This document shows positions 51,759-63,177 of a stretch of 64,000 nucleotides of DNA, in pieces (position 1 is the stretch's first letter; every line of letters begins with the position of its first letter). A model generated the notes under the pieces. The model searched no databases and had not been told where the DNA came from. It worked only from the letters and a program-made list of their open reading frames with translations. The DNA is from Alphaproteobacteria bacterium (GTDB taxonomy: Bacteria > Pseudomonadota > Alphaproteobacteria > SP197), in assembly GCA_965200745.1 (NCBI GenBank), contig CBDAUZ010000001.1, positions 370,896-434,895 of the forward strand. The letters are read 5' to 3'. Position numbers and translations under genes: made by a program.

Positions 51759-52136
51759 GCATGTTCCATTCGACACGCAAAATCGCTCGGGTTCCTCTGC
51801 GCGTACATTGATTTCGACAAACGCGGTTGCCAGCCATTCATTTCGACCCGATCGAAACGCTCAACGACAGGGATTCACCAGGCACGAAGAGTTCGTAACT
51901 GGTCACCATAAACGGCCACGAGCTTTGTCATTGTGTGACGGGCGCCACCGGCCCGTTGCTTGCGAACGGGGTCGGGGCCCTCTGCTACATCAAGGCACGT
52001 AGCCTTCTCCGGCGCAAAGTTGAATGCTTGCCGCATACTGATGTTGCGTGATATTAGGTATAACATGGTTTAATGCCATTTAAATACGACTTTCGTAAAA
52101 TTTGACTTGCATGTGTTTTGGAATAAGCGTGTTTTG

Positions 52137-52985
52137 ATGACGATGAACCGCCAAAGAACGCCACGCCTGAAACCGCTCCTGGATACTGTCCCTCCCGGCT
52201 TCATGGTAGACACGCCATGGCTGAGAGCCCGAGGGATCGACCCGAAGTCCATCCACGACTATGTCGCCCGCGGGTGGCTAGAACGCGTGGTCCGCGGCGT
52301 GTACCGCCGTCCGCTACCCGACGGCGCGCAGGGCGGTCACGAGGAGGCCTGGGCGATTCCGCTTCTCTCCCTGCAATGGATCATGAAGTACGCCGTACAT
52401 CTCGGAGGAGAGAGTGCCCTCGACATGGCCGGCTACGCCCATTACTTGAGACTCGGCGGGAGATCGCGCGTTCATTTCTATGGCGAGGTGCCGTCATGGC
52501 TGAAGCGGCTGCCCATGCAGGTCGAGACCGTAGTCCGCCGGCGCACGCTCTTCGGCGACGCCCCCCTCGGTATCGACGATGCCAATCTTGACGCTGCGAG
52601 AAGCCAACCGATGGTGAACGTGTGGCGCTGGCCCCTCAGGGCATCGTCGCCGGAACGCGCCATCCTCGAGGCCCTCGACGAGCTGCCGCGGAATGCGACC
52701 TTCGAGAACCTCGACAAGGTCTTCGAGGGACTGGTGTCGCTCCGACCCAAGCGGCTCACGATGCTCCTCAAGGCGTGCCACAGCGTGAAGGTGCGACGGC
52801 TGTTCTTCGTGTTTGCCGACAAGCACCAGCACGCATGGCGCAAGCACTTGGATACCTCAGAGTTCGATTTCGGGTCTGGGCCGCGGGCCTTGGTAGAGGG
52901 CGGCAGATTCCATCCGACCTATCGCATCTACGTGCCCGAAATGTTCCTGACCGGATCACAGCAAACGGCAGACGGCGATGTTTGA
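52137..52985 (+). CDS. AbiEi-family antitoxin/transcriptional regulator (type IV TA)
   Basis: N-terminal 'TPRLKPLLDTVPPGFMVDTPWLRARGIDPKSIHDYVARGWLERVVRGVYRRP' is the AbiEi_4 signature. Overlaps the downstream gene by 8 bp. Confidence 0.7.
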   Translation: MTMNRQRTPRLKPLLDTVPPGFMVDTPWLRARGIDPKSIHDYVARGWLERVVRGVYRRPLPDGAQGGHEEAWAIPLLSLQWIMKYAVHLGGESALDMAGYAHYLRLGGRSRVHFYGEVPSWLKRLPMQVETVVRRRTLFGDAPLGIDDANLDAARSQPMVNVWRWPLRASSPERAILEALDELPRNATFENLDKVFEGLVSLRPKRLTMLLKACHSVKVRRLFFVFADKHQHAWRKHLDTSEFDFGSGPRALVEGGRFHPTYRIYVPEMFLTGSQQTADGDV

Positions 52986-53658
52986 CCGGTACGCGGCGCA
53001 GGTACGCCTGCTCCTGGACACGCTGCCCGATATCGCCAACGAGAACGTGTTTGCACTCAAGGGCGGCACCGCCATCAACCTGTTCTACAGGGACATGCCG
53101 AGATTGTCCGTCGACATCGACCTGACTTACCTGCCGGTGGCGGACCGTCAATCTTCGTTGCAGGACATCGACCATGCCCTCGACCGCATCGTCGCGGCCA
53201 TCGCCCGCCGCAACCCGCACATCGAGGCGCGCCGTGCAGCGGGTGGCGGAAACGCCGACACGCGCATCATGGTTAGTGACGGCCAGTAGCAAATAAAGAT
53301 CGAGACCTCCCCGATAGCGCGGGGGGCGGTGTATCCAGCGACCACAATGAACGCTTCGGAGGCCGTGACGGCGCTCTTCGGATTCGTCGAGACGACCGTG
53401 CTGACGTTCGAGGATGTGTACGGCGGGAAACTTGCCGAGGCTCTCGATCGCCAGCATCCGCGCGACCTCTACGATGTGAATCTCCTGTATGAGAACGAAG
53501 GCCTGACAGCAGATATCTTTCGAACGTTTATGGTCTATGTGGCGAGCTCTGGCCGTCCGATGCACGCGCTGCTGGCGCCGACGGCGCCTCTCAGGGAGGA
53601 GCTGTATGGTAAGGAATTCGTGGGATCGCCTGGCACCAGGTCCAGGGAAGGAAGATGA
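52978..53658 (+). pseudogene. AbiEii/AbiGii-family nucleotidyltransferase toxin interrupted by in-frame TAG (53287-53289)
   Basis: 'NVFALKGGTAINLFYRDMPRLSVDIDLTY' nucleotidyltransferase motif. A single amber stop occurs after ...RIMVSDGQ, and translation continues in the same frame ('QIKIETSPIARG…'). Confidence 0.65.
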
Positions 53659-53842: not shown

Positions 53843-55543
53843 TCACTCGGAGATGCGATACCAGTCGGCAGCGTTCCAGAGTTCCGAATCCCAGGTATTG
53901 AGCACGATTCCACCCAGCGTGTTTGCGTGCGCAGAAACCCGGCCACGGTAGACCAGCGGGATCATGATATGCTGTTGCATCAGCATGTCGTTCATCGCTC
54001 TGGCAAGTTCGGCGCGTTCATTGATGTCACCCGTCTTCGACATTGTATCGAGAAGTGCATCATATTCCGGGCTGCAGTAGCGCGGGATATTGCCACCCTG
54101 CCACTGGCTGGCGGGGCTCGGATCGTTACCGCAACGCCAGCTACCAAGGTACGGCTCAGGATCAGCACCACCGAAACCATTCGCGTACATCTCGATGTCG
54201 GCAAAGAACTTCTGGGTGGTGTCGGGTTTGCCTGGATCACCGCCGAAGAACACTGACGCAGAAAGATTGCGCAATTCCGTTTCCACACCAATTTCCGACC
54301 ACCACTGCTTGATCAGAGCCTGAAAGTCCTGACGAACGGCATTGGTGGACGTCTGGTAGAGAATCGAAAGGCGAACGCCGTCCTTCGCACGCACACCATC
54401 GCTGCCAACTAACCAGTCGGCACTGTCGAGCAGGGTGTTTGCACCTTCGATGTCCTGGGTGAGACATGAGTCATTCGCTGACGACTCATAAATCGCTGGC
54501 GCGGGTACAATATTGCATGTCACACGACCAGCGGGACCATAACCGATCTCGACAAGAAGCGCGCGATCAATGGCCATGGAAAGTGCCTTGCGGACATCGG
54601 GGTCCGTCAGGAAGGGATGCGGATGGGCACGCGTCGAACGCTCGTCTCCAAGGGCAGGAGACGGGTTCGTCAGGTTTACCATCAGCCGTTCCACGAGTGT
54701 TCCGAATGCGGAAACCACGACACCCTTGCCAGCTGCCTCCATGTCCGCAAGGACGTCAGGTGCAAGCTGCAGATTCCATGCGTAGTCGAATTCCCCGGTC
54801 TCAAGTACCGACCGTCCTGCCGCAGCAGCATCACCGCCGCCCTTGAAGGTCAGCGTCGCAAACGCCGGTTTTGCAGGATCACGGTAATTCGGATTCGCTT
54901 CCATGCTGATTACGTCATTGGGACGGAAATCCGTGACACGAAATGGTCCGGTACCGATCGGATTGAAGTTCGCTTCCGTGCACTCCCGTGCCTTGGCACC
55001 GACACAATTCTCGAACTGCTTCTTCTGAATGATTGGCGTCTTGTCACCAACAAATGGACCATAGGGAAACGGCTTGGGAACACCGAATGTAATCTGTACG
55101 GTCAGCTCGTCCAGCGCGTCGACCGAGACCAGATCGCCGAACTTCCCACGCTGCGAACACCCGCCGTCGGGGTTGATGCAGTACTCAGCGGTGAACACGA
55201 CATCAGCGGATGTAACCGGTGAACCGTCGGACCAGAGCAGGCCTGGCTTCAGTTTCCAGGTGATCTTCGTCAGATCGGCAGAGACACCGCCATTCGCGAC
55301 AGTCGGAACGGATTCGGCAAGCCATGGCGTGATGTTGCCATTTTCGTCGTACCTTGCCAGCGGATCAAGTATGAGAGATGCAGCCTCAATATCCTTCGTG
55401 CCTCTAGACAGGTACGGGTTCAGAATGGACGGTGCCTGCCAGTAGATAATACTGACATGTCCGTCGCTGCCACGTTCTGCATAGGCCGTCGCCGCAACCA
55501 GTCCCAACATCAGACCGGTTACTGCAAGCGCAAGTTTTTTCAT
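53843..55543 (-). CDS. ABC transporter substrate-binding protein, family 5 (OppA/DppA-like)
   Basis: 566 aa with signal peptide and SBP_bac_5 architecture. Confidence 0.85.
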
Positions 55544-56225
55544 GCCGGAACTCCTTTCCGTTCTTGCCGGTCAGGTGCCGTAGAGTAGCAGATTTCCATG
55601 ACTTTCGGACAACGCGTGCAGAACACACATCCGGTCGGCGGGTTGGCAGGTGATGGCACATCGCCCTCGAGAATAATTCTCTGACGATGCTGTTCGTGTA
55701 CGGGATCAGGCTCGGGAACGGCGGAAAGCAATGCCTCCGTATAGGGGTGACCCGGTCTCTCGTAGAGATCCTTGACGTCCGCGAGTTCGATGACCTTGCC
55801 AAGGTACATGACCGCAACCCTGTCAGCGATGTGGCGCACCATTCCAAGATCATGACTGATAAAGAGATAGGTCAGATTCATCTGTTCCTGCAGGTCCTCA
55901 AGCAGATTGACGACCTGTGCCTGAATGGAGACGTCCAGCGCCGCAATCGGCTCGTCACAGATAATCAGGCGGGGACGCAGGGCCAGCGCCCTGGCTATGC
56001 CAATGCGTTGTCGTTGGCCGCCGGAAAACTCATGTGGATACCTGTTGGCAAAATCCTGATTGAGTCCGACAGACTTCATCAGTTCAATCACGCGTTCGTG
56101 ACGCTCGTCTCGCGAAAGGTTTCTGTGTTCGTCGAGTGGTTCTGAAATGATCTCTGCAACGGTCATGCGCGGATTGAGACTGGCCTGGGGATCCTGAAAG
56201 ATCATCTGCATTTCGGAACGCAGCT
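55540..56225 (-). pseudogene. Peptide ABC transporter ATPase (OppF/DppF-like), N-terminally truncated by IS remnant
   Basis: Retains the Q-loop, signature '[15 protein letters not shown]', Walker B and the C-terminal oligopeptide domain. Lacks Walker A. The first codons of the ORF are IS-derived sequence. Confidence 0.7.
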
Positions 56226-56983
56226 TCCGGACCTCACCGCTGCTGCCCAAGCAGGGCAAGATGGGTCGTCCGCGCAGGACCGATCTGCGGTCGACGCCAT
56301 CTGGTACATCCTCAGCACGGGCTGCCCATTGGCGGTCGCTTCCGGTGAATATCCACCATTTTCAACAGTCCAGAACTATTTCTACGGGTGGCGTCGCAGG
56401 CAAGGTCCTGCAGCGCTTGCGGGATCTGGCGCGGTGCTCGCTCTGCGGAGCCGAGCATGGCCGTGATCGACAGCCAGTCGGTGAAGACCACGGAGAGTGG
56501 CGGTCCCTGTGGCTATGATGCAAGCAAGAAGATCAAGGGCCGCAAGCGGCACATTGCCGTGGACGCGCAAGGCAACCCGATTGTCATGATGGTTCACCCG
56601 GCTGACGTCCAGGACAGGGACGGTGCCCTGGAGGTTGTCATACAGCTGTTGGCAACGGCGCCGACGATCTCCAAACTGTATGCCGATATGGTGGCTATGC
56701 GGGGCCGAAACTTCGAAAGGAGATCCGGGAACAGGGTCTGCCAGACATCCTCGAGATTGTGGAATAGCCGAAGGCACGGTGTTGTCCCGCCGGTGAGTCG
56801 TGGAGCGGACCTTTGCCTGGATGGGCCGATGCCGTCGCTTGTCGAAGGATGACGAGCGCCACACTGACAATCCCTGGCCTGGGCGCAATTGGCCGCCTGT
56901 CGATTTCTTGTCAGGCGCGTGGCGCGTGAAACAACTGCGTGAAAAAAATTGACTATTAAAACATGGATTTATGATTCAAACTC
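56226..56983 (+). mobile_element. Degenerate, 5'-truncated IS5-family copy (about 85-90% identical to copies 1 and 2)
   Basis: Homology starts inside orfA. There are indels and frameshifts in orfA and orfB. The right end '…TTTATGATTCAAACTC' resembles the IR of copies 1 and 2. Confidence 0.65.
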
Positions 56984-57306
56984 TTACACCTTTCGCGCCG
57001 GCGACCCGTAGCGTTCTCTATTGCCTCTTCAGAAGCTCAGGCTTCAGAGCGAAGATGCTCACAAGGGTCACCGGCACGTCCAAAAGCCATCAGCGTGTCG
57101 CGCCGAATTCTCTTCTCGCTTGCGAGGTGCTCGCTGCGGATTCAAGGTTGCTTGCCTTGTTCGACGGAAAAGTCAGCCCAATGATGAATCTGCTTCTCTC
57201 GAATCGTCGAGAGTCCCACGAACTGACGCTGATCCGCGCCCTCCTCCTACCGAAGCTCATGTCCGGCGAAATTCGCCTCCATGATGCCGAGAAGGCGGTG
57301 GCATGA
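56984..57306 (+). pseudogene. Possible C-terminal fragment of a type I R-M specificity subunit (HsdS)
   Basis: Ends '…LIRALLLPKLMSGEIRL', which resembles conserved HsdS C-termini. It is only about 105 aa and abuts the IS remnant. Confidence 0.3.
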
Positions 57307-58136
57307 GTTCGTTGACGGACATTGAGAAGCGGTATCTCGAAAAGTTGCTCGACATGAACGGCGGCTATGTTCTCGACTTCACGGACGCCACATTTGGTGA
57401 ATTCTTCGAACGGCACAACGTCGACATCCACGGTCGCAAGTATCAGACGTTCGGAACGTCGAAGGCGAAGAAGCTCCGCGCCTTTTGGTCATCGGAATCC
57501 GACCAACAGGTCGGCACAGTGGTGTCCGAACTGCTGGACACCTATGAGGCAGACTGCGACCTCAACGGCAGGGAACTGAACAAGGGATTGCTGGAAAAAG
57601 TGCGCAGCATCGCCGGACGGCTGAACGGTCAATCTACCGTTTCTCTGGTGACCACGACGAAAGGCCAGTTTCTAGCTCGGGAGTTCGCGGTTCCGAACAT
57701 TCGAAATATGCCCATTGACGCGCAGGTCGTGTCGATAGTCGAAGCAAGACTTGACGAGGCCCGCATCGCGCTTGCCGCAGGTGCCCATTTGTCAGTGATC
57801 TTTATGTGCGGCAGCGTCGTTGAAGCCGTTTTGCTCGGCGCAGCCCAGAAGGCTCCAGCAAAATTCAATCAGGCGAACGCGACGCCGAGGGCAACGAACG
57901 GATCGCCGAAACGTTTTCATGAATGGAGCCTTGCACAGTTGATCGACGTTGCGTGCGAGGTTGGCATTCTGGGGCCCGACATCAAGAAATTCAGTCACGG
58001 CTTGCGCGATTTCCGGAACTATATCCACCCATACCAGCAGATGGCCTCCGGTTTCACACCGGATGAACACACCGCCAAGGTCTGCTTCCAAGTCCTGAAG
58101 GCCGTTTTGGCGAGCCTGGCGGGTGAGCGCTCATGA
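57303..58136 (+). CDS. Hypothetical protein with C-terminal HEPN-like R-x(4-6)-H motif
   Basis: 277 aa. 'HGLRDFRNYIHPYQ' near the C-terminus. ATGA overlap with both upstream and downstream genes. Confidence 0.45.
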   Translation: MSSLTDIEKRYLEKLLDMNGGYVLDFTDATFGEFFERHNVDIHGRKYQTFGTSKAKKLRAFWSSESDQQVGTVVSELLDTYEADCDLNGRELNKGLLEKVRSIAGRLNGQSTVSLVTTTKGQFLAREFAVPNIRNMPIDAQVVSIVEARLDEARIALAAGAHLSVIFMCGSVVEAVLLGAAQKAPAKFNQANATPRATNGSPKRFHEWSLAQLIDVACEVGILGPDIKKFSHGLRDFRNYIHPYQQMASGFTPDEHTAKVCFQVLKAVLASLAGERS

Positions 58137-59281
58137 TGCGCGTCTCCGTCAATCCCAAGCTTCTGCATTGGGCGCGCGAGCGCGCTGGTTTTGCGCAGGA
58201 AGATCTGGCGGCGAGATTCAAGAAACTGCCAGAGTGGGAAAGCGGCGAGGTTCAGCCCACGCTGAAGCAGTTGGAGGCCTTCGCTCGCGCCGTCCATGTG
58301 CCATTCGGTTATCTGTTCTTCCCGGAGCCCCCCGTCGAACGCCTCCCGATCGCCGACTTCCGCACTGTTGCGGACAAAGCAAAGGTCAAAGCGAGCCCCG
58401 ACCTGATCGATACGCTCTACGCCATGCAGCGGAGACAGGCATGGCTACGGGAGCACCTCGTCGAGAGCGGGGTGGAGCCGTTGGCCTTCGCGGCGAGCGC
58501 CAGTCTTGCAGACGACCCCGGTGCGGTGGGCCGAGAGATGCGGCGTGTGCTTGGCCTGGACGAGGGCTGGACGGCGGGGGTGCGCAGTTGGCAGGATGCC
58601 GTGAATGAGCTGCGCCGCATGATCGAGCAACTTGGCGTGATGGCGGTAATCAACGGTATCGTCGGCAACAATACGCACCGTCGGCTGAGCGTGGCGGAGT
58701 TTCGCGGGTTCGCGCTCACGGATCGTTATGCACCCCTGATTTTCGTGAACGGCGCGGGTGCGAAATCCGCCCAGATGTTCACGCTGGCTCACGAGCTGGC
58801 CCACATCTGGCTCGGCGAAGAGGGGCTTTCCGGCTTCGATCACCTGCTTCCTGGCGGCACGGACGTGGAAGATTGGTGCAACCAGGCAGCGGCTGAATTC
58901 CTCGCACCATCGCGCGAAATGCGGGAGCGCTGGAACAAGGTCAGACGGGAAGTGAATCCCTTCGAGGCCCTTGGTCGGTCGTTCAAGGTGAGCCCGGTTG
59001 TCGCGGCCCGTCGAGCCATGGACCTCAAGCTCATTGAGCGCAACATTTTCTTCGAATTCTACGAAGGCTACATCACGCGGGAACATCGGGGCGGGGCGGC
59101 ATCGTCCGGTGGCGATTTTTACAACAAACAGAACGTGCGTGTCGGCAAGCTTTTCGCAACCCATGTGATGCGGGCAGCAATGGGAGGCGAGATAGGTTTC
59201 AGGGAAGCCTATGAGCTGACCGGCCTCCGGGGCGGAACGTTCCAGGACTACGCCAATAAACTGGGCATCCTGCTTCCCTGA
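58133..59281 (+). CDS. XRE-family HTH fused to ImmA/IrrE (COG2856) zinc metallopeptidase
   Basis: N-terminal HTH, then 'MFTLAHELAHIWL' HEXXH and the ImmA/IrrE fold. Confidence 0.8.
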   Translation: MMRVSVNPKLLHWARERAGFAQEDLAARFKKLPEWESGEVQPTLKQLEAFARAVHVPFGYLFFPEPPVERLPIADFRTVADKAKVKASPDLIDTLYAMQRRQAWLREHLVESGVEPLAFAASASLADDPGAVGREMRRVLGLDEGWTAGVRSWQDAVNELRRMIEQLGVMAVINGIVGNNTHRRLSVAEFRGFALTDRYAPLIFVNGAGAKSAQMFTLAHELAHIWLGEEGLSGFDHLLPGGTDVEDWCNQAAAEFLAPSREMRERWNKVRREVNPFEALGRSFKVSPVVAARRAMDLKLIERNIFFEFYEGYITREHRGGAASSGGDFYNKQNVRVGKLFATHVMRAAMGGEIGFREAYELTGLRGGTFQDYANKLGILLP

Positions 59282-59808
59282 TGACAAATCAGACAACATA
59301 TCTCGTGGACTCCGACGCCCTCATTACCGCAAAGGATCTGTACTACGCGTTCGATCTATGCCCCGGATTCTGGAAGAGCTTGCTTCATTATCACCGAGAG
59401 GGTCGGGTTTTCAGCATTGACAGAGTACGAAACGAGTTGCTCATGGGTCGCAGTAACGAGGATCTGGTTCAGTGGGTGAAAAACGATGTCCCGGACGAAT
59501 TCTTCCTGCCAGTCGACACCGATGAATTGGCGCGCGTCTATGCGGAAATCATGATGTGGGTTCAACGCCATCCAGACTATTTCGATCATGCGAAAGCGAA
59601 GTTCGCGACGGGTGCGGACGGCTGGCTCGTAGCCTGCGCACGTGTTTGGGGCGCGACCGTCGTGACGAACGAGCAGCCTGCCCCGGAGTCCCGAAGGGAC
59701 GTGAAACTGCCGGATGTTTGCGACGAATTCAGAGTCCTTCGGCAGGACACGTTCGTCATGCTTCGAGCGCTGGGAGTGCGGTTCGATTGGAAGGGCGGAG
59801 TTGAATGA
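59281..59808 (+). CDS. DUF4411-family (PIN-like) protein
   Basis: 'YLVDSDALITAKDLYYAFDLCPGFW' N-terminus typical of DUF4411. 1-nt stop/start overlap with the ImmA gene. Confidence 0.7.
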   Translation: MTNQTTYLVDSDALITAKDLYYAFDLCPGFWKSLLHYHREGRVFSIDRVRNELLMGRSNEDLVQWVKNDVPDEFFLPVDTDELARVYAEIMMWVQRHPDYFDHAKAKFATGADGWLVACARVWGATVVTNEQPAPESRRDVKLPDVCDEFRVLRQDTFVMLRALGVRFDWKGGVE

Positions 59809-60307
59809 GCCAAAGCATGAACCCCTATGAAATGCTCCGCCGCGAGCGAGTTCGCTTCGTCCAGGGATATGCCGGAACCGGCAAGACCACCATGCTGAAC
59901 CGCGCCTGCGCGATGCTCGAGAAGAAGGGCTACACGGTCCGGGTCCTTGCGCCGTGCATTCCTTCCAGGGACGCACCGTCGACACGGTGATCACCGCCAT
60001 GGAGGCGAAACACCCCAATCTCACCACCCAGCAGATGCTCTATGTCGAGATCAGCCGCGCACGCGACCGCGCCGAATTCGTCACCGACGACAGGGAGCAG
60101 CTCGAAGCCGTCGCCGGCGAGCGCATCGCCGCACTGGAAGCTGTCGGGTCGGAGCGGACCGCAACGCCGGAAGCCCGATCCGATGTGGGCCGCAGCGCCG
60201 GTCGGGAAAGCGGTACGCCAGAATCGCCGGAGAAACACCGGGCGCCGGAACCCGAAATCGGGAAAGCGCACGTTCCGAAGCGCATCGCGCACGATCTCGG
60301 CTTATGA
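59805..60307 (+). pseudogene. Relaxase/helicase (TraA/MobA-like) remnant A: Walker-A fragment fused to C-terminal motif
   Basis: 'VQGYAGTGKTTML' is followed directly, after a frame change, by 'VHSFQGRTVD…MLYVEISRARDRAEFVTDD'. Confidence 0.55.
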
Positions 60308-60329
60308 TGCGGCGCTGCGGGTGCCAGTG

Positions 60330-60362
60330 CAGAACGGAGTAGCATCGGTGCCGTTCTGTTTT
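60330..60362 (+). terminator. Rho-independent terminator
   Basis: 8-bp perfect stem CAGAACGG/CCGTTCTG with a 13-nt loop, followed by TTTT. Confidence 0.55.
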
Positions 60363-60419
60363 GGCAGAACAGATCATCCGATATATTCGTATATAATCCG
60401 ATCTTCGAAGGAGTCCGAT

Positions 60420-60674
60420 ATGGCCTTGGTCAAGAAGAGCATCACTGTAACGGATCGACAGGAGCGGTGGATCAGAACCGTGGTCGCCAGCGGCGAGTAC
60501 GGCAATGACAGCGAATATTTGCGCGATCTGATCCGCCGGGATCAGGAACAGAATGCGCAGTTCCGCGCGTTGAAGCAGGCCATTCAGGACGGTCTGGAGA
60601 GCGGCGTGAGCGACAGGACAGTGAAGGAAGTGTGGGCCGAAGTGGAGCAACGCTATCGCGCGCGGCATGGCTGA
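60420..60674 (+). CDS. parD: ParD-family antitoxin
   Basis: 'MALVKKSITVTDRQERWIRTVVASGEYGNDSEYLRDLIRRDQEQ' is the ParD/CopG signature. Preceded by TATATAAT and AAGGAG. Confidence 0.8.
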   Translation: MALVKKSITVTDRQERWIRTVVASGEYGNDSEYLRDLIRRDQEQNAQFRALKQAIQDGLESGVSDRTVKEVWAEVEQRYRARHG

Positions 60675-60957
60675 CTATCAGCTTTCCTCTCTCGCCGAGG
60701 CCGACCTCGCCGGGATCGCCGACTAAACCATCGAGACCTTCGGCATCGAACAGGCGCGCCGCTATCGCGACGAATTCGATGCGTGCTTCCGAAACCTCGC
60801 GAAGAATCCGCAATCGGGCCGGAACGCCGAACGATTGGCGCCGGGACTGCGGCGCTGGGAGCATCGCTCGCACGTCGTATTCTATACCGAGGACGAACGC
60901 GGAGTTTTGATCGTTCGTATCCTGCACGCGAGGATGGATGCAATCCGTCATTTATGA
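60667..60957 (+). pseudogene. parE: ParE-family toxin with in-frame TAA at codon 20 (60724-60726)
   Basis: 'MADYQLSSLAEADLAGIAD*TIETFGIEQARRYRDEF…VVFYTEDERGVLIVRILHARMD'. TAA replaces the expected Tyr codon of the conserved D-Y-T. Confidence 0.75.
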
Positions 60958-61079
60958 CGGAGGAAGTGGTTGAGGGTCATCGCCCCTACTGTCGCCCTTT
61001 TTGGTCTTGGTGATGGACACGATGAATGCCATTCCGCCCATCATCCACCGTTGCGCGACGACTGTCGGCGACATGAACC

Positions 61080-61565
61080 GCCGAGGTCGCCGCGGTGAGG
61101 GACGGCAAGGTGACGTTCCGGCTGGAGGACGGGCGCAGCCTCGACCTCTACCCCGGCGATCCGCAACTGCGCCAAATCGACCGCGTCTGGGCCTCCACCG
61201 TGCATTCCTTCCAGGGTCGCACCGTCGGCACGGTGATGCCGCCATGGAGGCGAAGCATCCCAATCTCACCACCCAGCAGATGCTCTATGTCGAGATCAGC
61301 CGCGCACGCGACCGCGCCGAATTCGTCACCGACGACAGGGAACCGCTCAGGGAGCAGCTCGAAGCGGCCACCGGAGAGAGGATCGCCGCGCTGGAAGCGG
61401 TCGAGACCGAGCGGGCCTGGGCGCTGGAAGCCTGATCCGATATGGGCCGCAGCGCCGGTCGGGAAAGCGGTGAGCCGAAATCGCCGGAGAAACACCGGGC
61501 GCTGGAAACGGAACACGAGAAGGCCTCGACACCGAAGCGCATCGACCACGATCTCGGTCTGTAAT
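61080..61565 (+). pseudogene. Relaxase/helicase remnant B (direct repeat of remnant A, about 95% identical over about 370 bp)
   Basis: 'GKVTFRLEDGRSLDLYPGDPQLRQIDRVWASTVHSFQGRTVGTV', then a 1-nt deletion frameshift, then 'MEAKHPNLTTQQMLYVEISRARDRAEFVTDD'. Confidence 0.5.
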
Positions 61566-61663: not shown

Positions 61664-61957
61664 ATGAGGATCGTAGCCCGGCCCAGGCTGATTGCGTTTG
61701 GGGAGCGCTTTCCGGATGCGAAGGTGCAGCTTGACGCGTGGTGGACCGAGGCCAGGCGCGCGGAGTGGAAAACACCGGCCGACATCAAGGCGCAGTACCG
61801 CAACGCGAGCATCCTCAAGGGCGGGCGCGTGGTTTTCAATATCTGCGGCCACAAGTATCGGCTGGTCGTCCGATTCGACTACGGCAAGGGTATCGGACTT
61901 GTCCGTTTTCTGGGAACTCACAAGGAGTACGACCGAATCAACGCGGAGGAGGTGTGA
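61664..61957 (+). CDS. higB: HigB-family toxin (RelE/ParE superfamily)
   Basis: '…ASILKGGRVVFNICGHKYRLVVRFDYGKGIGLVRFLGTHKEYDRINAEEV' matches the HigB_toxin family. Confidence 0.8.
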   Translation: MRIVARPRLIAFGERFPDAKVQLDAWWTEARRAEWKTPADIKAQYRNASILKGGRVVFNICGHKYRLVVRFDYGKGIGLVRFLGTHKEYDRINAEEV

Positions 61958-63177
61958 TGATGAGCGAATATCGTATCCGGCCAATTCATTCCGAGCAGGA
62001 CTATGTCGATGCTCTCGCCCGCGTTGAAGCGCTCATGGAGATGGATCGCTCATCGGCGGAAGACGACGAGTTTGACGTGCTCGCGACTCTCATCGAGGTC
62101 TACGAGGATCGGCTTTTTCCGATGAATGCACCCGATCCCATCGAAGCGATCAAGTTCCGCATGCATCAGCTCGGGAAGAACCAGAGCGACCTGGCCCCGA
62201 TCTTCGGGAGTCGGGCGAAAGCCTCGGAGGTGCTGAGCGGTAAGCGCGATCTGACCCTGAAGATGATCCGTGCCTTGCATGAGCATCTGGGCATTCCCGC
62301 AGAGGTTCTGATCCGTGACGGTAGGAGCCTGCCAAAGGCTCCTGCCGGGATCGATCTCGACCGCTTTCCCGTCACCGAAATGGCCAAGCGAGGGTGGATC
62401 AAGAAGACGGCGGATATGAAGGACCGCATCGAGGAAATCGTGCAGGAGCTTGTCGCCTGTGCCGGTGGCCGCGAAGCGCTTCCCCAGGCGCTCTTCCGTC
62501 AGGGCGGCGGGGCGCGCGTGAACGCCAGGACCGACCTGCATGCCATGCAGGCGTGGTGTCTCCACATCCTTTGCAAGGCTAGATGCGCGGGGCTTGAGGG
62601 TATCTACGAGTCCGGGACCATAGACCTTGTCTTCCTGCGGGACCTTGCGAGGCTCAGTACCTTCGATGATGGACCGAGGCTTGCCAGGGAGAAGCTCGCG
62701 AAGCATGGCATCGCGTTGGTTGTCGCGGCCCATCTGCCGACGACCTATCTCGATGGCGCCGCGCTCTGGACCATGGAAAAGGTGCCTGTAGTCGGCATGA
62801 CGGTCCGGCATGACCGCCTCGACAATTTCTGGTTCTGTCTTCTGCACGAACTCGCCCATCTCGGGCGCCATTTTCCGGACGGGAATGGAGAGGTCTTCAT
62901 CGACGATCTGCAGCTCCGCGAACGAAACCATGAGCGCGATGACGAGCGTGAGCGCGAAGCTGACGAATGGGCGCAAGAGGCGCTGATCCCGTCGGAGATC
63001 TGGGACGAGCATCCGGCGCAAGACAACCCGAGTGTTCGGAATGTTCTTTCGCTTGCGCGAAAAGCCGATGTGCATCCTGCAATTGTGGCGGGTCGCATCC
63101 GTCACGAGTCGCGCAACTACCGGCTTCTGTCGCAGTTCGTTGGCGCAAGAGAGGTGGGTCCGCTGCTAAGAGCATGA
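61958..63177 (+). CDS. higA: HigA-like HTH antitoxin fused to ImmA/IrrE metallopeptidase domain
   Basis: Start MMSEYRIRP. N-terminal HigA-type region, then a C-terminal domain with 'FWFCLLHELAHLGRH' HEXXH. Confidence 0.7.

What the first reader, a model, noticed from the sequence alone, without database searches (positions are those of the whole stretch)
56984..59808. Tightly coupled HEPN-like, HTH-ImmA peptidase and DUF4411 three-gene cassette next to an hsdS-like fragment
Three ORFs with 4-nt and 1-nt overlaps suggest a single translationally coupled unit. The first has an R-x6-H HEPN-type motif. The second is an XRE-HTH fused to a HEXXH ImmA/IrrE peptidase. The third is DUF4411 (PIN-like). 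ImmA-type peptidases normally control phage repressors or toxins, while PIN and HEPN proteins are common defence effectors. The cassette sits beside a probable truncated type I R-M specificity gene and is surrounded by toxin-antitoxin modules. This is a candidate uncharacterised anti-phage or abortive-infection module.
Basis: partly seen in the sequence, partly recalled or inferred. Interest (0 to 1): 0.65.

Follow-up and report, generated by a model that had tools for sequence, protein, structure and literature searches.

The report
Stacked defence genes in a dead restriction operon
The three overlapping genes are real, but they are two separate, separately mobile defence-type modules (a lone HEPN RNase-like gene, and a known kind of protease-antitoxin/PIN-toxin pair) left behind in the cargo slot of a destroyed type I restriction-modification operon, not one new three-gene system.

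Summary
Observation confirmed. ORFs 57303-58136, 58133-59281 and 59281-59808 overlap by 4 and 1 nt. They follow a 3' remnant of hsdS (56971-57306), which overlaps ORF1 by 4 nt.

ORF2 is an HTH plus M78/ImmA peptidase with an intact HEXXH, and it matches the PADLOC RmrA model. ORF3 is a full-length DUF4411 PIN-like protein with four conserved acidic residues. ORF1 has no Pfam, PADLOC, NCBIfam or PHROG hit of its own. It belongs to a very large family (about 3,000 clusters at 50% identity). The family's C-terminal domain has a HEPN fold, shows sub-threshold DUF4145 similarity in 58 of 91 relatives, and carries invariant E174, R238 and H242 (R235-x6-H242).

The "single three-gene unit" interpretation is only partly supported:
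- ImmA follows ORF1 in 7 of 80 ORF1 genome loci. Elsewhere ORF1 mostly follows hsdS or MmeI-type genes and precedes hsdR, or stands alone.
- Upstream of DUF4411, ImmA is always present, but ORF1 only in the closest relatives.
- In other loci the ImmA-DUF4411 pair sits in the same hsdS-hsdR slot alone, or stacked with DarTG or Septu-like genes. On plasmids it is autonomous.

The pair is a RosmerTA-like / "HTH-DUF955-PIN" module already described. ORF1 is an uncharacterised RM-embedded HEPN effector and the only moderately novel part.

The parts
56388..56852 (+). Truncated DDE transposase (IS remnant) that marks the left break of the former type I R-M operon
   Evidence: The Pfam DDE_Tnp_1 hit (6.3e-14) covers only profile positions 4-84 of 200. 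It lies between a 5'-truncated oligopeptide ABC ATPase gene and the hsdS remnant.
56971..57306 (+). 3' remnant (about the last 100 codons) of a type I R-M specificity gene (hsdS). Its stop overlaps the ORF1 start by 4 nt.
   Evidence: PADLOC Specificity_I at 6e-19, profile positions 340-442 of 446. Only the last 80-103 aa align to the full HsdS of L014, L015 and L019.
57303..58136 (+). ORF1, 277 aa. It has an N-terminal helical domain (residues 1-108) with no recognisable relatives, then a linker, then a C-terminal DUF4145-like HEPN domain (residues ~120-272).
   Evidence: AF2 model with pLDDT 94.5. Foldseek hits to HEPN structures 1ufb, 1wol, 3o10, 7ae6, 2hsb. DUF4145 hits in 58 of 91 relatives, mapping to residues ~150-250. 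The family has 3,043 and 3,075 hits in the two searches.
57303..57626 (+). ORF1 N-terminal domain (consensus GYVLDFS...SKAKRLRxFW), the putative sensor/regulatory domain
   Evidence: Domain-only AF2 model with pLDDT 96.4. No PDB fold match (best probability 0.28). Among the 120 best of 929 profile-search hits there were only the same family, truncated forms of it, and one Abi_C fusion.
58005..58028 (+). Putative HEPN catalytic motif RDFRNYIH (R235-x6-H242; R238 and H242 invariant)
   Evidence: Alignment A1 of 91 sequences: invariant E174, R238, H242; R235, N239 and P243 at least 90% conserved. Positions.
58133..59281 (+). ORF2, 382 aa. XRE-type HTH (residues ~10-65) fused to an M78 ImmA/IrrE zinc peptidase (residues ~196-295; HELAH at 220-224, nt 58790-58804). 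RmrA-like antitoxin/regulator.
   Evidence: Pfam and PADLOC, NCBIfam antitox_spr1629 at 3.8e-9, phrog_2439 at 4e-50. H220, E221, H224 and E255 are conserved in 21 homologues.
59281..59808 (+). ORF3, 175 aa. DUF4411 PIN-like nuclease, the putative toxin/effector of the pair.
   Evidence: PF14367 at 3.4e-41 (141 bits against a 23.5-bit cut-off). phrog_11126 at 5e-28. D10, E52, D113 and E131 are conserved in 19 homologues. ImmA lies immediately upstream in every related locus with enough sequence.

Best explanation
The region is the surviving cargo of a type I restriction-modification operon. That operon has lost hsdM, most of hsdS and hsdR. An IS remnant lies on the left and relaxase/helicase debris on the right.

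Two evolutionarily independent modules had been stacked in the hsdS-hsdR slot.

(1) ORF1 is a single-protein effector of the HEPN superfamily (DUF4145-like clade).
- It is held inactive by, or activated through, the family-specific N-terminal helical domain.
- On phage infection it would cleave tRNA, rRNA or mRNA and abort the infection.
- The logic is that of RAZR (sensor domain plus DUF4145 RNase). It is possibly also that of PrrC, because the gene is so often translationally coupled to hsdS or MmeI-type genes.

(2) ORF2-ORF3 is a RosmerTA-like toxin-antitoxin/abortive-infection pair.
- The HTH-ImmA protein (RmrA-like) would repress the operon and neutralise the DUF4411 PIN-like nuclease.
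- A phage- or damage-derived signal would then trigger the zinc peptidase (self-cleavage or HTH cleavage, as for ImmA/ImmR, IrrE/DdrO and CapP/CapH).
- That would release the nuclease.

Shown here: the gene structure, the domain identities, conservation of the catalytic residues, and the separability and genomic contexts of the modules.

Inferred: RNase/nuclease activity, toxicity, neutralisation, the triggers, and antiphage function.

In this genome the three genes are probably still co-transcribed, given the overlapping stop and start codons. That reflects stacking, not a three-component mechanism.
For: Modularity:
- ImmA follows ORF1 in 7 of 80 ORF1 loci by tblastn (6 of the 77 with a called ORF1 gene). 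25 of 77 loci are in recognisable type I R-M context, 12 of them with both flanks. 5 are after MmeI-type genes.
- Among 57 same-strand upstream neighbours, 15 are Methylase_S and 4 are MmeI. Among 50 downstream neighbours, 9 are HsdR and 6 are Peptidase_M78.
- From the DUF4411 side, ImmA is always adjacent but ORF1 only in the 82%-identical loci. L096-L101 have ImmA-DUF4411-hsdR, with hsdM or hsdS upstream, and no ORF1.
- The slot also stacks DarT-DarG (L098) or AAA_21+HNH (L096) in front of ImmA-DUF4411.
- On plasmids the pair is autonomous among TA genes.
- ORF1 linkage is polyphyletic in the ImmA tree.

ORF1 as a HEPN protein. DUF4145 is a HEPN family linked to R-M (PMC3710099) and an active RNase in RAZR (PMC13017515).

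The pair. Literature: PMC5499597, 10.1101/2022.05.11.491447, PMC10440598.

Embedded genes in type I R-M operons acting as independent defences: 10.1101/2024.01.29.577857, PMC11411939.
Against: - No activity has been measured for any of the three proteins.
- The window ORF1 itself does not reach any Pfam threshold. The Foldseek E-values for HEPN structures are weak (0.9-7), although TM-scores normalised to the target reach 0.66 and the top hit has probability 0.97.
- R238-x3-H242 is not a canonical Rx4-6H spacing. The canonical reading relies on R235, which is at least 90% conserved but not invariant.
- ORF1-ImmA adjacency with 4-nt overlap arose or persisted in two divergent ImmA lineages. This could hint at some functional synergy.
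- ORF3 and ORF1 hit no PADLOC RmrT model.
- Neighbouring modules in the window are pseudogenised, so the cassette could be on its way to decay.
- The locus samples were ascertained through ORF1 or DUF4411 homology and are mostly MAGs. My gene calls were crude, so the counts are approximate lower bounds.
Confidence: 0.68

Rival explanations
1. Single three-component system. Here the HTH-ImmA protein is the shared antitoxin/regulator of two flanking toxins, HEPN ORF1 upstream and PIN-like DUF4411 downstream (a toxin-antitoxin-toxin operon).
For: - The 4-nt and 1-nt overlaps suggest coupled translation.
- The trio recurs in nine other loci, and ORF1 sits next to two divergent ImmA lineages.
- ImmA/Rosmer antitoxins are reported with variable gene order, 58% toxin-first (PMC10440598).
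- The window itself has a toxin-first HigB + HTH-ImmA pair.
Against: - ORF1 lacks any ImmA neighbour in about 90% of sampled loci, and is often solitary or directly followed by hsdR. A constitutively toxic ORF1 needing ImmA would not be viable there.
- ImmA-DUF4411 is complete without ORF1 in all moderately diverged relatives and on plasmids.
- In other loci the same position upstream of ImmA is taken by self-sufficient systems, DarTG or Septu-like.
Confidence: 0.1
2. ORF1 is a PrrC-like guard of the R-M enzyme. Its N-terminal domain docks on the methyltransferase/specificity complex (HsdS/HsdM, or MmeI-type enzymes), which keeps the HEPN RNase silent. Phage anti-restriction proteins would release it. 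In this window it would be an orphan whose partner has been deleted.
For: - ORF1 occupies exactly the prrC position (hsdS-X-hsdR) in at least 12 loci.
- It overlaps the upstream gene's stop in 21 of 60 loci; 10 of those upstream genes are hsdS and 3 are MmeI-type.
- R-M linkage of HEPN clades, with the PrrC analogy, was proposed in PMC3710099.
Against: - 47 of 77 loci show no recognised R-M gene nearby (a lower-bound detection).
- Type I HsdS and MmeI-type enzymes are structurally unrelated docking partners.
- ORF1 lacks PrrC's ABC ATPase.
- The gene remains intact here although the R-M genes are gone. An unguarded toxic RNase should be counter-selected.
Confidence: 0.2
3. The genes are inert or merely addictive leftovers. 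ImmA-DUF4411 would act only as a stabilisation (addiction) module of a former mobile element. ORF1 would be a non-catalytic HEPN-like RNA-binding or regulatory protein. There would be no antiphage role.
For: - The neighbourhood is decayed: truncated hsdS, an IS remnant, frameshifted AbiEii, ParE with a stop codon, and duplicated helicase fragments.
- On plasmids the pair sits among classical TA genes.
- Some HEPN domains are non-catalytic (PMC3710099).
Against: - All three ORFs are intact with every family-conserved catalytic residue.
- ORF1 relatives are about 70% identical across phyla, implying strong purifying selection and horizontal spread.
- Both modules are embedded in R-M operons next to validated defence systems.
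- RosmerTA systems and the DUF4145 protein RAZR do defend against phages (10.1101/2022.05.11.491447; PMC13017515).
Confidence: 0.1

Closest known systems
RosmerTA (RmrT/RmrA), and the 'HTH + DUF955/ImmA protease + PIN-like' three-component TA predicted by Matelska et al. 2017
   Same: - ORF2 has the RmrA architecture, an N-terminal HTH plus an M78 Zn-peptidase, and hits 15 PADLOC RmrA models (best 1e-15).
- The two genes are tightly overlapping.
- A DUF4411.1 gene downstream of a fused HTH-DUF955 gene is exactly the arrangement described in PMC5499597. ImmA-PIN pairing is noted in PMC10440598.
   Different: - No PADLOC RmrT toxin model matches ORF3.
- As far as I found, no DUF4411-type pair has been tested for toxicity or defence.
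- Here, and in relatives, the pair is embedded in type I R-M operons.
RAZR / PD-T7-4 (zinc-finger + DUF4145 HEPN RNase)
   Same: - Single polypeptide with an N-terminal non-catalytic domain and a C-terminal DUF4145-type HEPN domain.
- Conserved Arg and His are needed for RNase-based abortive infection in RAZR (PMC13017515). ORF1 has invariant R238 and H242, plus R235.
   Different: - ORF1's N-terminal domain is an all-helical ~110-aa domain without a Cys4 motif and without a PDB fold match.
- No member of the ORF1 family matches a PD-T7-4 (RAZR) model in PADLOC.
- DUF4145 similarity is below Pfam's threshold in the relatives inspected individually.
PrrC anticodon nuclease in the EcoprrI type Ic R-M operon
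   Same: A HEPN RNase gene inserted between hsdS and hsdR. The proposed logic is a second line of defence coupled to R-M (PMC3710099).
   Different: - No ABC ATPase domain.
- Many family members are not next to R-M genes.
- There is no evidence of interaction with HsdMS.
DUF4145-like HEPN proteins with 'DpnII/MboI-NTD' (Anantharaman et al. 2013, Table 2)
   Same: The published description fits ORF1's predicted secondary structure and its R-M context. It describes a ~100-115-aa, mostly helical N-terminal domain with a strand after the first helix, fused to a DUF4145 HEPN.
   Different: I could not obtain the reference sequences, so identity of the N-terminal domains is untested. No Pfam model hits the ORF1 N-domain.
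Defence genes embedded in type I R-M / BREX / Hma operons (Payne et al. 2024; TgvAB in V. cholerae VPI-2)
   Same: Independent defence modules nested between R-M genes. The slot carries interchangeable cargo: ORF1, ImmA-DUF4411, DarTG, Septu-like, and AAA_21+DUF4276.
   Different: In this window the host R-M system itself has been destroyed, leaving only the cargo.

Membership tests
HEPN superfamily | All-alpha helical-bundle HEPN fold | tested here: met
   The AF2 model has pLDDT 94.5. The only Foldseek PDB hits with probability above 0.2 are HEPN-containing structures: 1ufb (probability 0.97, target-normalised TM 0.66), 1wol (0.77, 0.66), sacsin HEPN 3o10, HepT 7ae6/6m6u/7bxo, 2hsb and 1ylm. 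E-values are weak at 0.9-7.
HEPN superfamily | Conserved Rx4-6H motif | tested here: met
   R235-x6-H242 (RDFRNYIH). H242 and R238 are invariant and R235 is at least 90% conserved in 91 sequences. The invariant Arg (R238) gives a non-canonical x3 spacing.
HEPN superfamily | Metal-independent endoRNase activity | not testable with these tools
   Needs biochemistry.
Pfam DUF4145 (PF13643) | Score at or above the gathering threshold (23.1 bits) | tested here: not met
   The window protein gives no hit even at E<=1. 58 of 91 relatives hit at E<=1 (best 7.5e-6). Of ten relatives inspected individually, six hit at 13-20 bits, always on the C-terminal domain (residues ~150-250 against profile positions 1-75). 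It is a divergent relative, not a formal member.
RAZR / PD-T7-4 | N-terminal Cys4 zinc-finger domain, and a match to the PD-T7-4 model | tested here: not met
   The N-domain is helical and has only one Cys (C85). No member of the family matches a PD-T7-4 (RAZR) model in PADLOC.
PrrC-type R-M-linked anticodon nuclease | N-terminal ABC ATPase fused to the HEPN domain | tested here: not met
   No ATPase or P-loop family hit. The N-domain is a 108-aa helical domain.
PrrC-type R-M-linked anticodon nuclease | Gene embedded between hsdS and hsdR | tested here: met
   True for relatives (12 loci with both flanks; L010-L012). In the window only the hsdS remnant survives.
RosmerTA | RmrA: HTH + M78/ImmA Zn-peptidase antitoxin | tested here: met
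   PADLOC RmrA at 1e-15 (15 RmrA models hit), Pfam Peptidase_M78 at 3.4e-13, HTH_3 at 0.0018. HEXXH and a downstream Glu are conserved.
RosmerTA | Adjacent RmrT toxin recognised by a system model | tested here: not met
   ORF3 and ORF1 give no PADLOC hits at E<=0.1. RmrT toxins are heterogeneous, so this lowers formal membership, not the functional analogy.
RosmerTA | Toxicity neutralised by the antitoxin; phage defence | not testable with these tools
   Needs experiments.
DUF4411 (PF14367), PIN-like VapC group | Full-length profile match and four conserved acidic active-site residues | tested here: met
   141.2 bits against a 23.5-bit cut-off, profile positions 1-159 of 159. D10, E52, D113 and E131 are at least 95% conserved in 19 homologues.
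HTH-DUF955 + DUF4411.1 three-component TA (Matelska 2017) | DUF4411 gene immediately downstream of a fused HTH-ImmA gene | tested here: met
   Seen in the window (1-nt overlap) and in every related locus with upstream sequence.
Type I restriction-modification system | hsdM, complete hsdS and hsdR all present | tested here: not met
   Only the last ~100 codons of hsdS remain. There is no tblastn match to HsdM or HsdR in the 64-kb window.

The most novel reading that the evidence does not exclude
ORF1 founds a large, unrecognised class of ATPase-less 'R-M guard' RNases. Its family-specific N-terminal domain would dock on DNA methyltransferase/specificity modules of unrelated R-M types (type I HsdS, MmeI-type enzymes). 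It would release a DUF4145-like HEPN RNase when phage anti-restriction proteins disable the enzyme. Stacking with ImmA-DUF4411 would then form a layered fail-safe.
Probability: 0.15. Interest if true: 0.7.

Novelty: new variant of a known kind. Interest (0 to 1): 0.38.

Why it matters
The result turns an apparent new three-gene system into two separable, testable modules. It also shows directly that the hsdS-hsdR gap acts as a cargo slot. Complete defence modules are stacked there in different combinations: ORF1, ImmA-DUF4411, DarTG, Septu-like, and AAA_21+DUF4276.

The useful lead is ORF1:
- The family is very large, with about 3,000 clusters at 50% identity in bacteria and archaea.
- Relatives are about 70% identical across phyla.
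- The window protein matches no Pfam, NCBIfam, PADLOC or PHROG model, and its relatives match no PADLOC system consistently.
- It has a confidently predicted HEPN domain and an N-terminal domain with no structural relative.

It is a good candidate for a plaque-assay and RNase study, and for asking whether R-M-coupled HEPN effectors other than PrrC exist. The ImmA-DUF4411 pair would extend RosmerTA to a PIN-like toxin. That is an incremental gain.

Tried and rejected
- Direct Pfam, NCBIfam, PADLOC and PHROG scans of ORF1 gave nothing.
- A PDB sequence-profile search with A1 gave only chance hits to VPS35 and uL1m.
- Foldseek of the N-domain alone against the PDB found no meaningful match.
- Foldseek of the full model against BFVD viral structures was uninformative.
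- The N-domain profile search aimed to find other effector fusions. Among the 120 hits listed it returned mostly truncated or frameshifted copies of the same family, plus one Abi_C fusion.
- The exact look-up of P0001's contig failed. The cluster look-up gave no names or organism.
- The promoter/terminator scan of 56300-60500 was at shuffle level and uninformative.
- The supplement of PMC3710099 did not hold the DpnII/MboI-NTD alignment, so that identity could not be tested.
- I considered ORF1 as the RmrT partner of ORF2 and rejected it as the main reading on co-occurrence grounds.
- I considered the downstream 59805-60307 ORFs as a remnant hsdR and rejected that. They are AAA_30/UvrD_C_2 helicase (relaxase-like) fragments.
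Full report
**1. Observation**

The ORF list and the junction sequences confirm three co-directional ORFs. ORF1 is 57303-58136 (277 aa), ORF2 is 58133-59281 (382 aa) and ORF3 is 59281-59808 (175 aa). Their stop and start codons overlap as ATGA, ATGA and TGATG. A 111-aa ORF at 56971-57306 also overlaps ORF1 by 4 nt.

- That 111-aa ORF matches only the C-terminal quarter of PADLOC type I specificity-subunit models (6e-19, profile positions 340-442 of 446). It is therefore a truncated hsdS.
- ORF2 matches Peptidase_M78 at 3.4e-13, with weak HTH_3. It also matches PADLOC RmrA (1e-15), CapP and PD-Lambda-2_B and NCBIfam antitox_spr1629. HELAH lies at residues 220-224.
- ORF3 is a full-length DUF4411 (3.4e-41).
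- ORF1 has no hit in Pfam, NCBIfam, PADLOC or PHROGs, but it contains RDFRNYIH (R235-x6-H242).

So the factual part of the finding is correct.

**2. What ORF1 is**

ORF1 belongs to a very large family. There are 3,043 hits in the 90%-clustered database and 3,075 representatives at 50% identity. The best 120 hits are at least 69% identical over the full length. The few named ones come from Alpha- and Gammaproteobacteria and Rhodothermaceae. More distant members occur in Dehalococcoidia, Planctomycetes, Acidobacteria, Bacteroidota, CPR bacteria and methanogenic archaea.

An alignment of 91 diverse members (A1) has invariant E174, R238 and H242, and nearly invariant R149, E152, R235, N239 and P243.

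AlphaFold2 with this alignment gives a confident model (pLDDT 94.5). It has two helical domains, residues 1-108 and about 120-272, joined by a low-confidence linker.

Evidence on the C-terminal domain:
- Against the PDB, the only hits with appreciable probability are HEPN domains or HEPN-containing proteins. These are TT1696 1ufb (probability 0.97, target-normalised TM 0.66), ST0689 1wol, sacsin HEPN 3o10, HepT toxins 7ae6/6m6u/7bxo, AF_0298 2hsb and YutE 1ylm. E-values are weak.
- Scanning every member of A1 against Pfam shows 58 of 91 hitting DUF4145 (best 7.5e-6). No other family is hit by more than two members.
- In ten members inspected individually, six gave a DUF4145 match. It always falls on the C-terminal domain (residues ~150-250 against profile positions 1-75 of 88), at 13-20 bits, below the 23.1-bit threshold.

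DUF4145 was assigned to the HEPN superfamily by Anantharaman et al. They noted its linkage to R-M operons and its fusion to several N-terminal domains (PMC3710099). It is the catalytic RNase domain of the abortive-infection protein RAZR/PD-T7-4, where a conserved Arg and His are essential (PMC13017515). I therefore accept "HEPN-like", and more precisely a divergent DUF4145-like HEPN.

Evidence on the N-terminal domain:
- It folds confidently on its own (pLDDT 96.4) but has no PDB fold relative.
- Among the 120 best of 929 profile-search hits there were only the same family, truncated copies, and one fusion to an Abi_C-type HEPN.
- The C-domain, in contrast, occurs with other N-termini (P0155, P0171, P0229).
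- No PADLOC model consistently matches the family.

**3. Is the trio a unit?**

ORF1 side. I fetched 80 genome loci encoding ORF1 relatives, called genes, and labelled neighbours with locally built HMMs and tblastn.
- ImmA follows ORF1 in only 7 loci (L013, L015, L016, L019, L040, L069, L083), with DUF4411 behind it wherever sequence allows.
- 25 of 77 loci lie in recognisable type I R-M context, 12 with both flanks. Five follow an MmeI-family gene.
- In 21 of 60 loci ORF1 overlaps the stop of the upstream same-strand gene. Ten of those upstream genes are hsdS and three are MmeI-type.
- Pfam scans of the immediate same-strand neighbours agree. Upstream (57 genes): Methylase_S 15, MmeI 4, plus other methyltransferases. 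Downstream (50 genes): HsdR 9, ResIII 14, Peptidase_M78 6.
- Metagenome contigs with precomputed Pfam annotations show hsdM-hsdS-ORF1-AAA_21-DUF4276-hsdR and MmeI-ORF1-...-DEAD-T5orf172-SIR2.

DUF4411 side. In 14 metagenome loci, ImmA is always immediately upstream. ORF1 is present only in the 82%-identical loci, L093 and L095. The 59-67%-identical loci L096-L101 have ImmA-DUF4411-hsdR, with hsdM or hsdS upstream, and no ORF1. The gene in front of ImmA there is:
- hsdS itself in L100 and L101;
- DarT-DarG in L098;
- an AAA_21 ATPase plus an HNH nuclease (Septu-like) in L096.

On plasmids the ImmA/XRE-DUF4411 pair is a free-standing two-gene module among VapBC, RES-Xre and GNAT toxin-antitoxin (TA) genes. 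Both of its genes have PHROG families.

In a neighbour-joining tree of ImmA proteins, the ORF1-adjacent ones form two separate clades, each sister to ORF1-less ImmAs.

Conclusion: ImmA-DUF4411 is an obligate pair and ORF1 is an autonomous gene. Both are frequent cargo of the hsdS-hsdR slot, and the trio is a stack that arose, or was reshuffled, more than once. The co-occurrence is narrow, however, and is better explained by a shared insertion slot.

**4. State of the locus in the window**

- No hsdM or hsdR is detectable in the window.
- Only about 100 codons of hsdS survive. They lie next to a truncated DDE transposase (56388-56852) and a 5'-truncated ABC ATPase gene.
- Downstream of ORF3 lie fragments of an AAA_30/UvrD_C_2 helicase gene. 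A ~320-nt piece of it is duplicated (59952-60267 and 61198-61524) around a ParD/ParE module whose ParE frame carries a stop codon.
- AbiEii upstream is split.

The cassette is thus the intact survivor of a degraded defence/mobile region. Its closest relatives (L013, L015, L016, L019) still sit inside type I R-M operons.

**5. Mechanism: best-supported, mostly inferred**

ORF1. The C-terminal HEPN domain probably dimerises or oligomerises to form a composite RNase site with R235/R238/H242. The N-terminal domain senses a trigger or autoinhibits. Activation during infection would cleave cellular or phage RNA and abort the infection. RAZR is the closest tested analogue. The frequent translational coupling to hsdS and MmeI genes keeps a PrrC-like R-M-guard model alive (rival, about 0.2). 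The many R-M-free loci, and the intact gene in this R-M-less window, argue against obligatory guarding.

ORF2-ORF3. By analogy with RosmerTA (10.1101/2022.05.11.491447; PMC10440598) and with ImmA/ImmR, IrrE/DdrO and CapP/CapH, the HTH-peptidase would autoregulate and neutralise the PIN-like nuclease until a signal activates the peptidase. The nuclease's four acidic residues (D10, E52, D113, E131) and the peptidase's HEXXH and Glu are conserved.

None of these activities was or could be tested here.

**6. Comparison with known systems and novelty**

The pair matches the published description of DUF4411.1 downstream of a fused HTH-DUF955 gene (PMC5499597) and the ImmA-PIN edge of the NetFlax network. 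It is a new member of a known kind.

ORF1 is a new variant of a known kind: a DUF4145-like HEPN effector with a distinct N-terminal domain. It may be the "DpnII/MboI-NTD + DUF4145" architecture listed in 2013, which I could not verify.

Nesting of independent defences inside type I R-M operons is established (10.1101/2024.01.29.577857; PMC11411939).

**7. Verdict**

Interest is moderate to low (0.38). Nothing here would surprise a defence-systems specialist. ORF1 is nevertheless a large, unannotated and highly conserved family worth testing.

Noticed in passing
window 61664-63177 (+): A second ImmA-type module. A HigB_toxin gene (61664-61957, 4.7e-28) is directly followed by a 406-aa HTH_3 + Peptidase_M78 protein (61957-63177, HELAH motif). 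This is a toxin-first, Rosmer-like arrangement with a RelE/HigB toxin.
   Followed up: partly
window 52107-53658 (+): An AbiEi antitoxin gene (AbiEi_3, 4e-41) is followed by an AbiEii nucleotidyltransferase toxin split into two ORFs (52978-53289 and 53329-53658). It is probably a frameshifted pseudogene.
   Followed up: partly
window 60420-60960 (+): A ParD antitoxin gene (60420-60674, 1.1e-8) is followed by a ParE-like reading frame interrupted by an in-frame stop codon.
   Followed up: partly
window 59805-60307 and 61095-61550: Fragments of an AAA_30/UvrD_C_2 helicase (relaxase-like) gene start 4 nt inside the ORF3 stop. A ~320-nt 3' piece is directly repeated (59952-60267 against 61198-61524, 83-96% identical) on either side of the ParDE module.
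   Followed up: partly
window 55540-56852: A truncated DDE_Tnp_1 transposase (56388-56852) abuts an oligopeptide ABC-transporter ATPase gene that lacks its 5' end (55540-56259, minus strand). This marks the deletion or insertion that removed hsdM and most of hsdS.
   Followed up: partly
L098 2281-9351; L096 954-12168: In relatives, the hsdS-hsdR slot holds ImmA-DUF4411 stacked behind DarT-DarG (L098) or behind an AAA_21 ATPase plus an HNH nuclease, Septu-like (L096). This is a clear example of combinatorial defence cargo inside type I R-M operons.
   Followed up: yes
L010 2715-8004 (also L011, L012): HsdS is fused at its N-terminus to an NTP_transf_2/Polbeta nucleotidyltransferase and is preceded by an NTase_sub_bind (HEPN-like) gene. 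This looks like an MNT-HEPN pair whose MNT is fused to the specificity subunit. A DUF3644 HEPN gene (HEC-08-like) sits upstream of hsdM.
   Followed up: no
L005-L009, L017-L021: A conserved cluster: an MmeI-family R-M gene, ORF1 (overlapping the MmeI stop or, in L018, one small gene further on), a DEAD/PMBR helicase (~685 aa), and T5orf172 (~400 aa). In L005-L009 two unannotated genes (286 and 400 aa) lie between ORF1 and the helicase, and a SIR2_2 gene and a DUF87/FtsK-like ATPase gene follow. This may be a larger uncharacterised defence island built around ORF1.
   Followed up: no
P0271, P0283, P0316, P0335: Many database entries of about 200 aa are ORF1 homologues that end prematurely inside the HEPN domain. 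One of them (P0283) was seen on 28 contigs. Recurrent truncation could reflect counter-selection of an active RNase, or assembly or frameshift artefacts.
   Followed up: no
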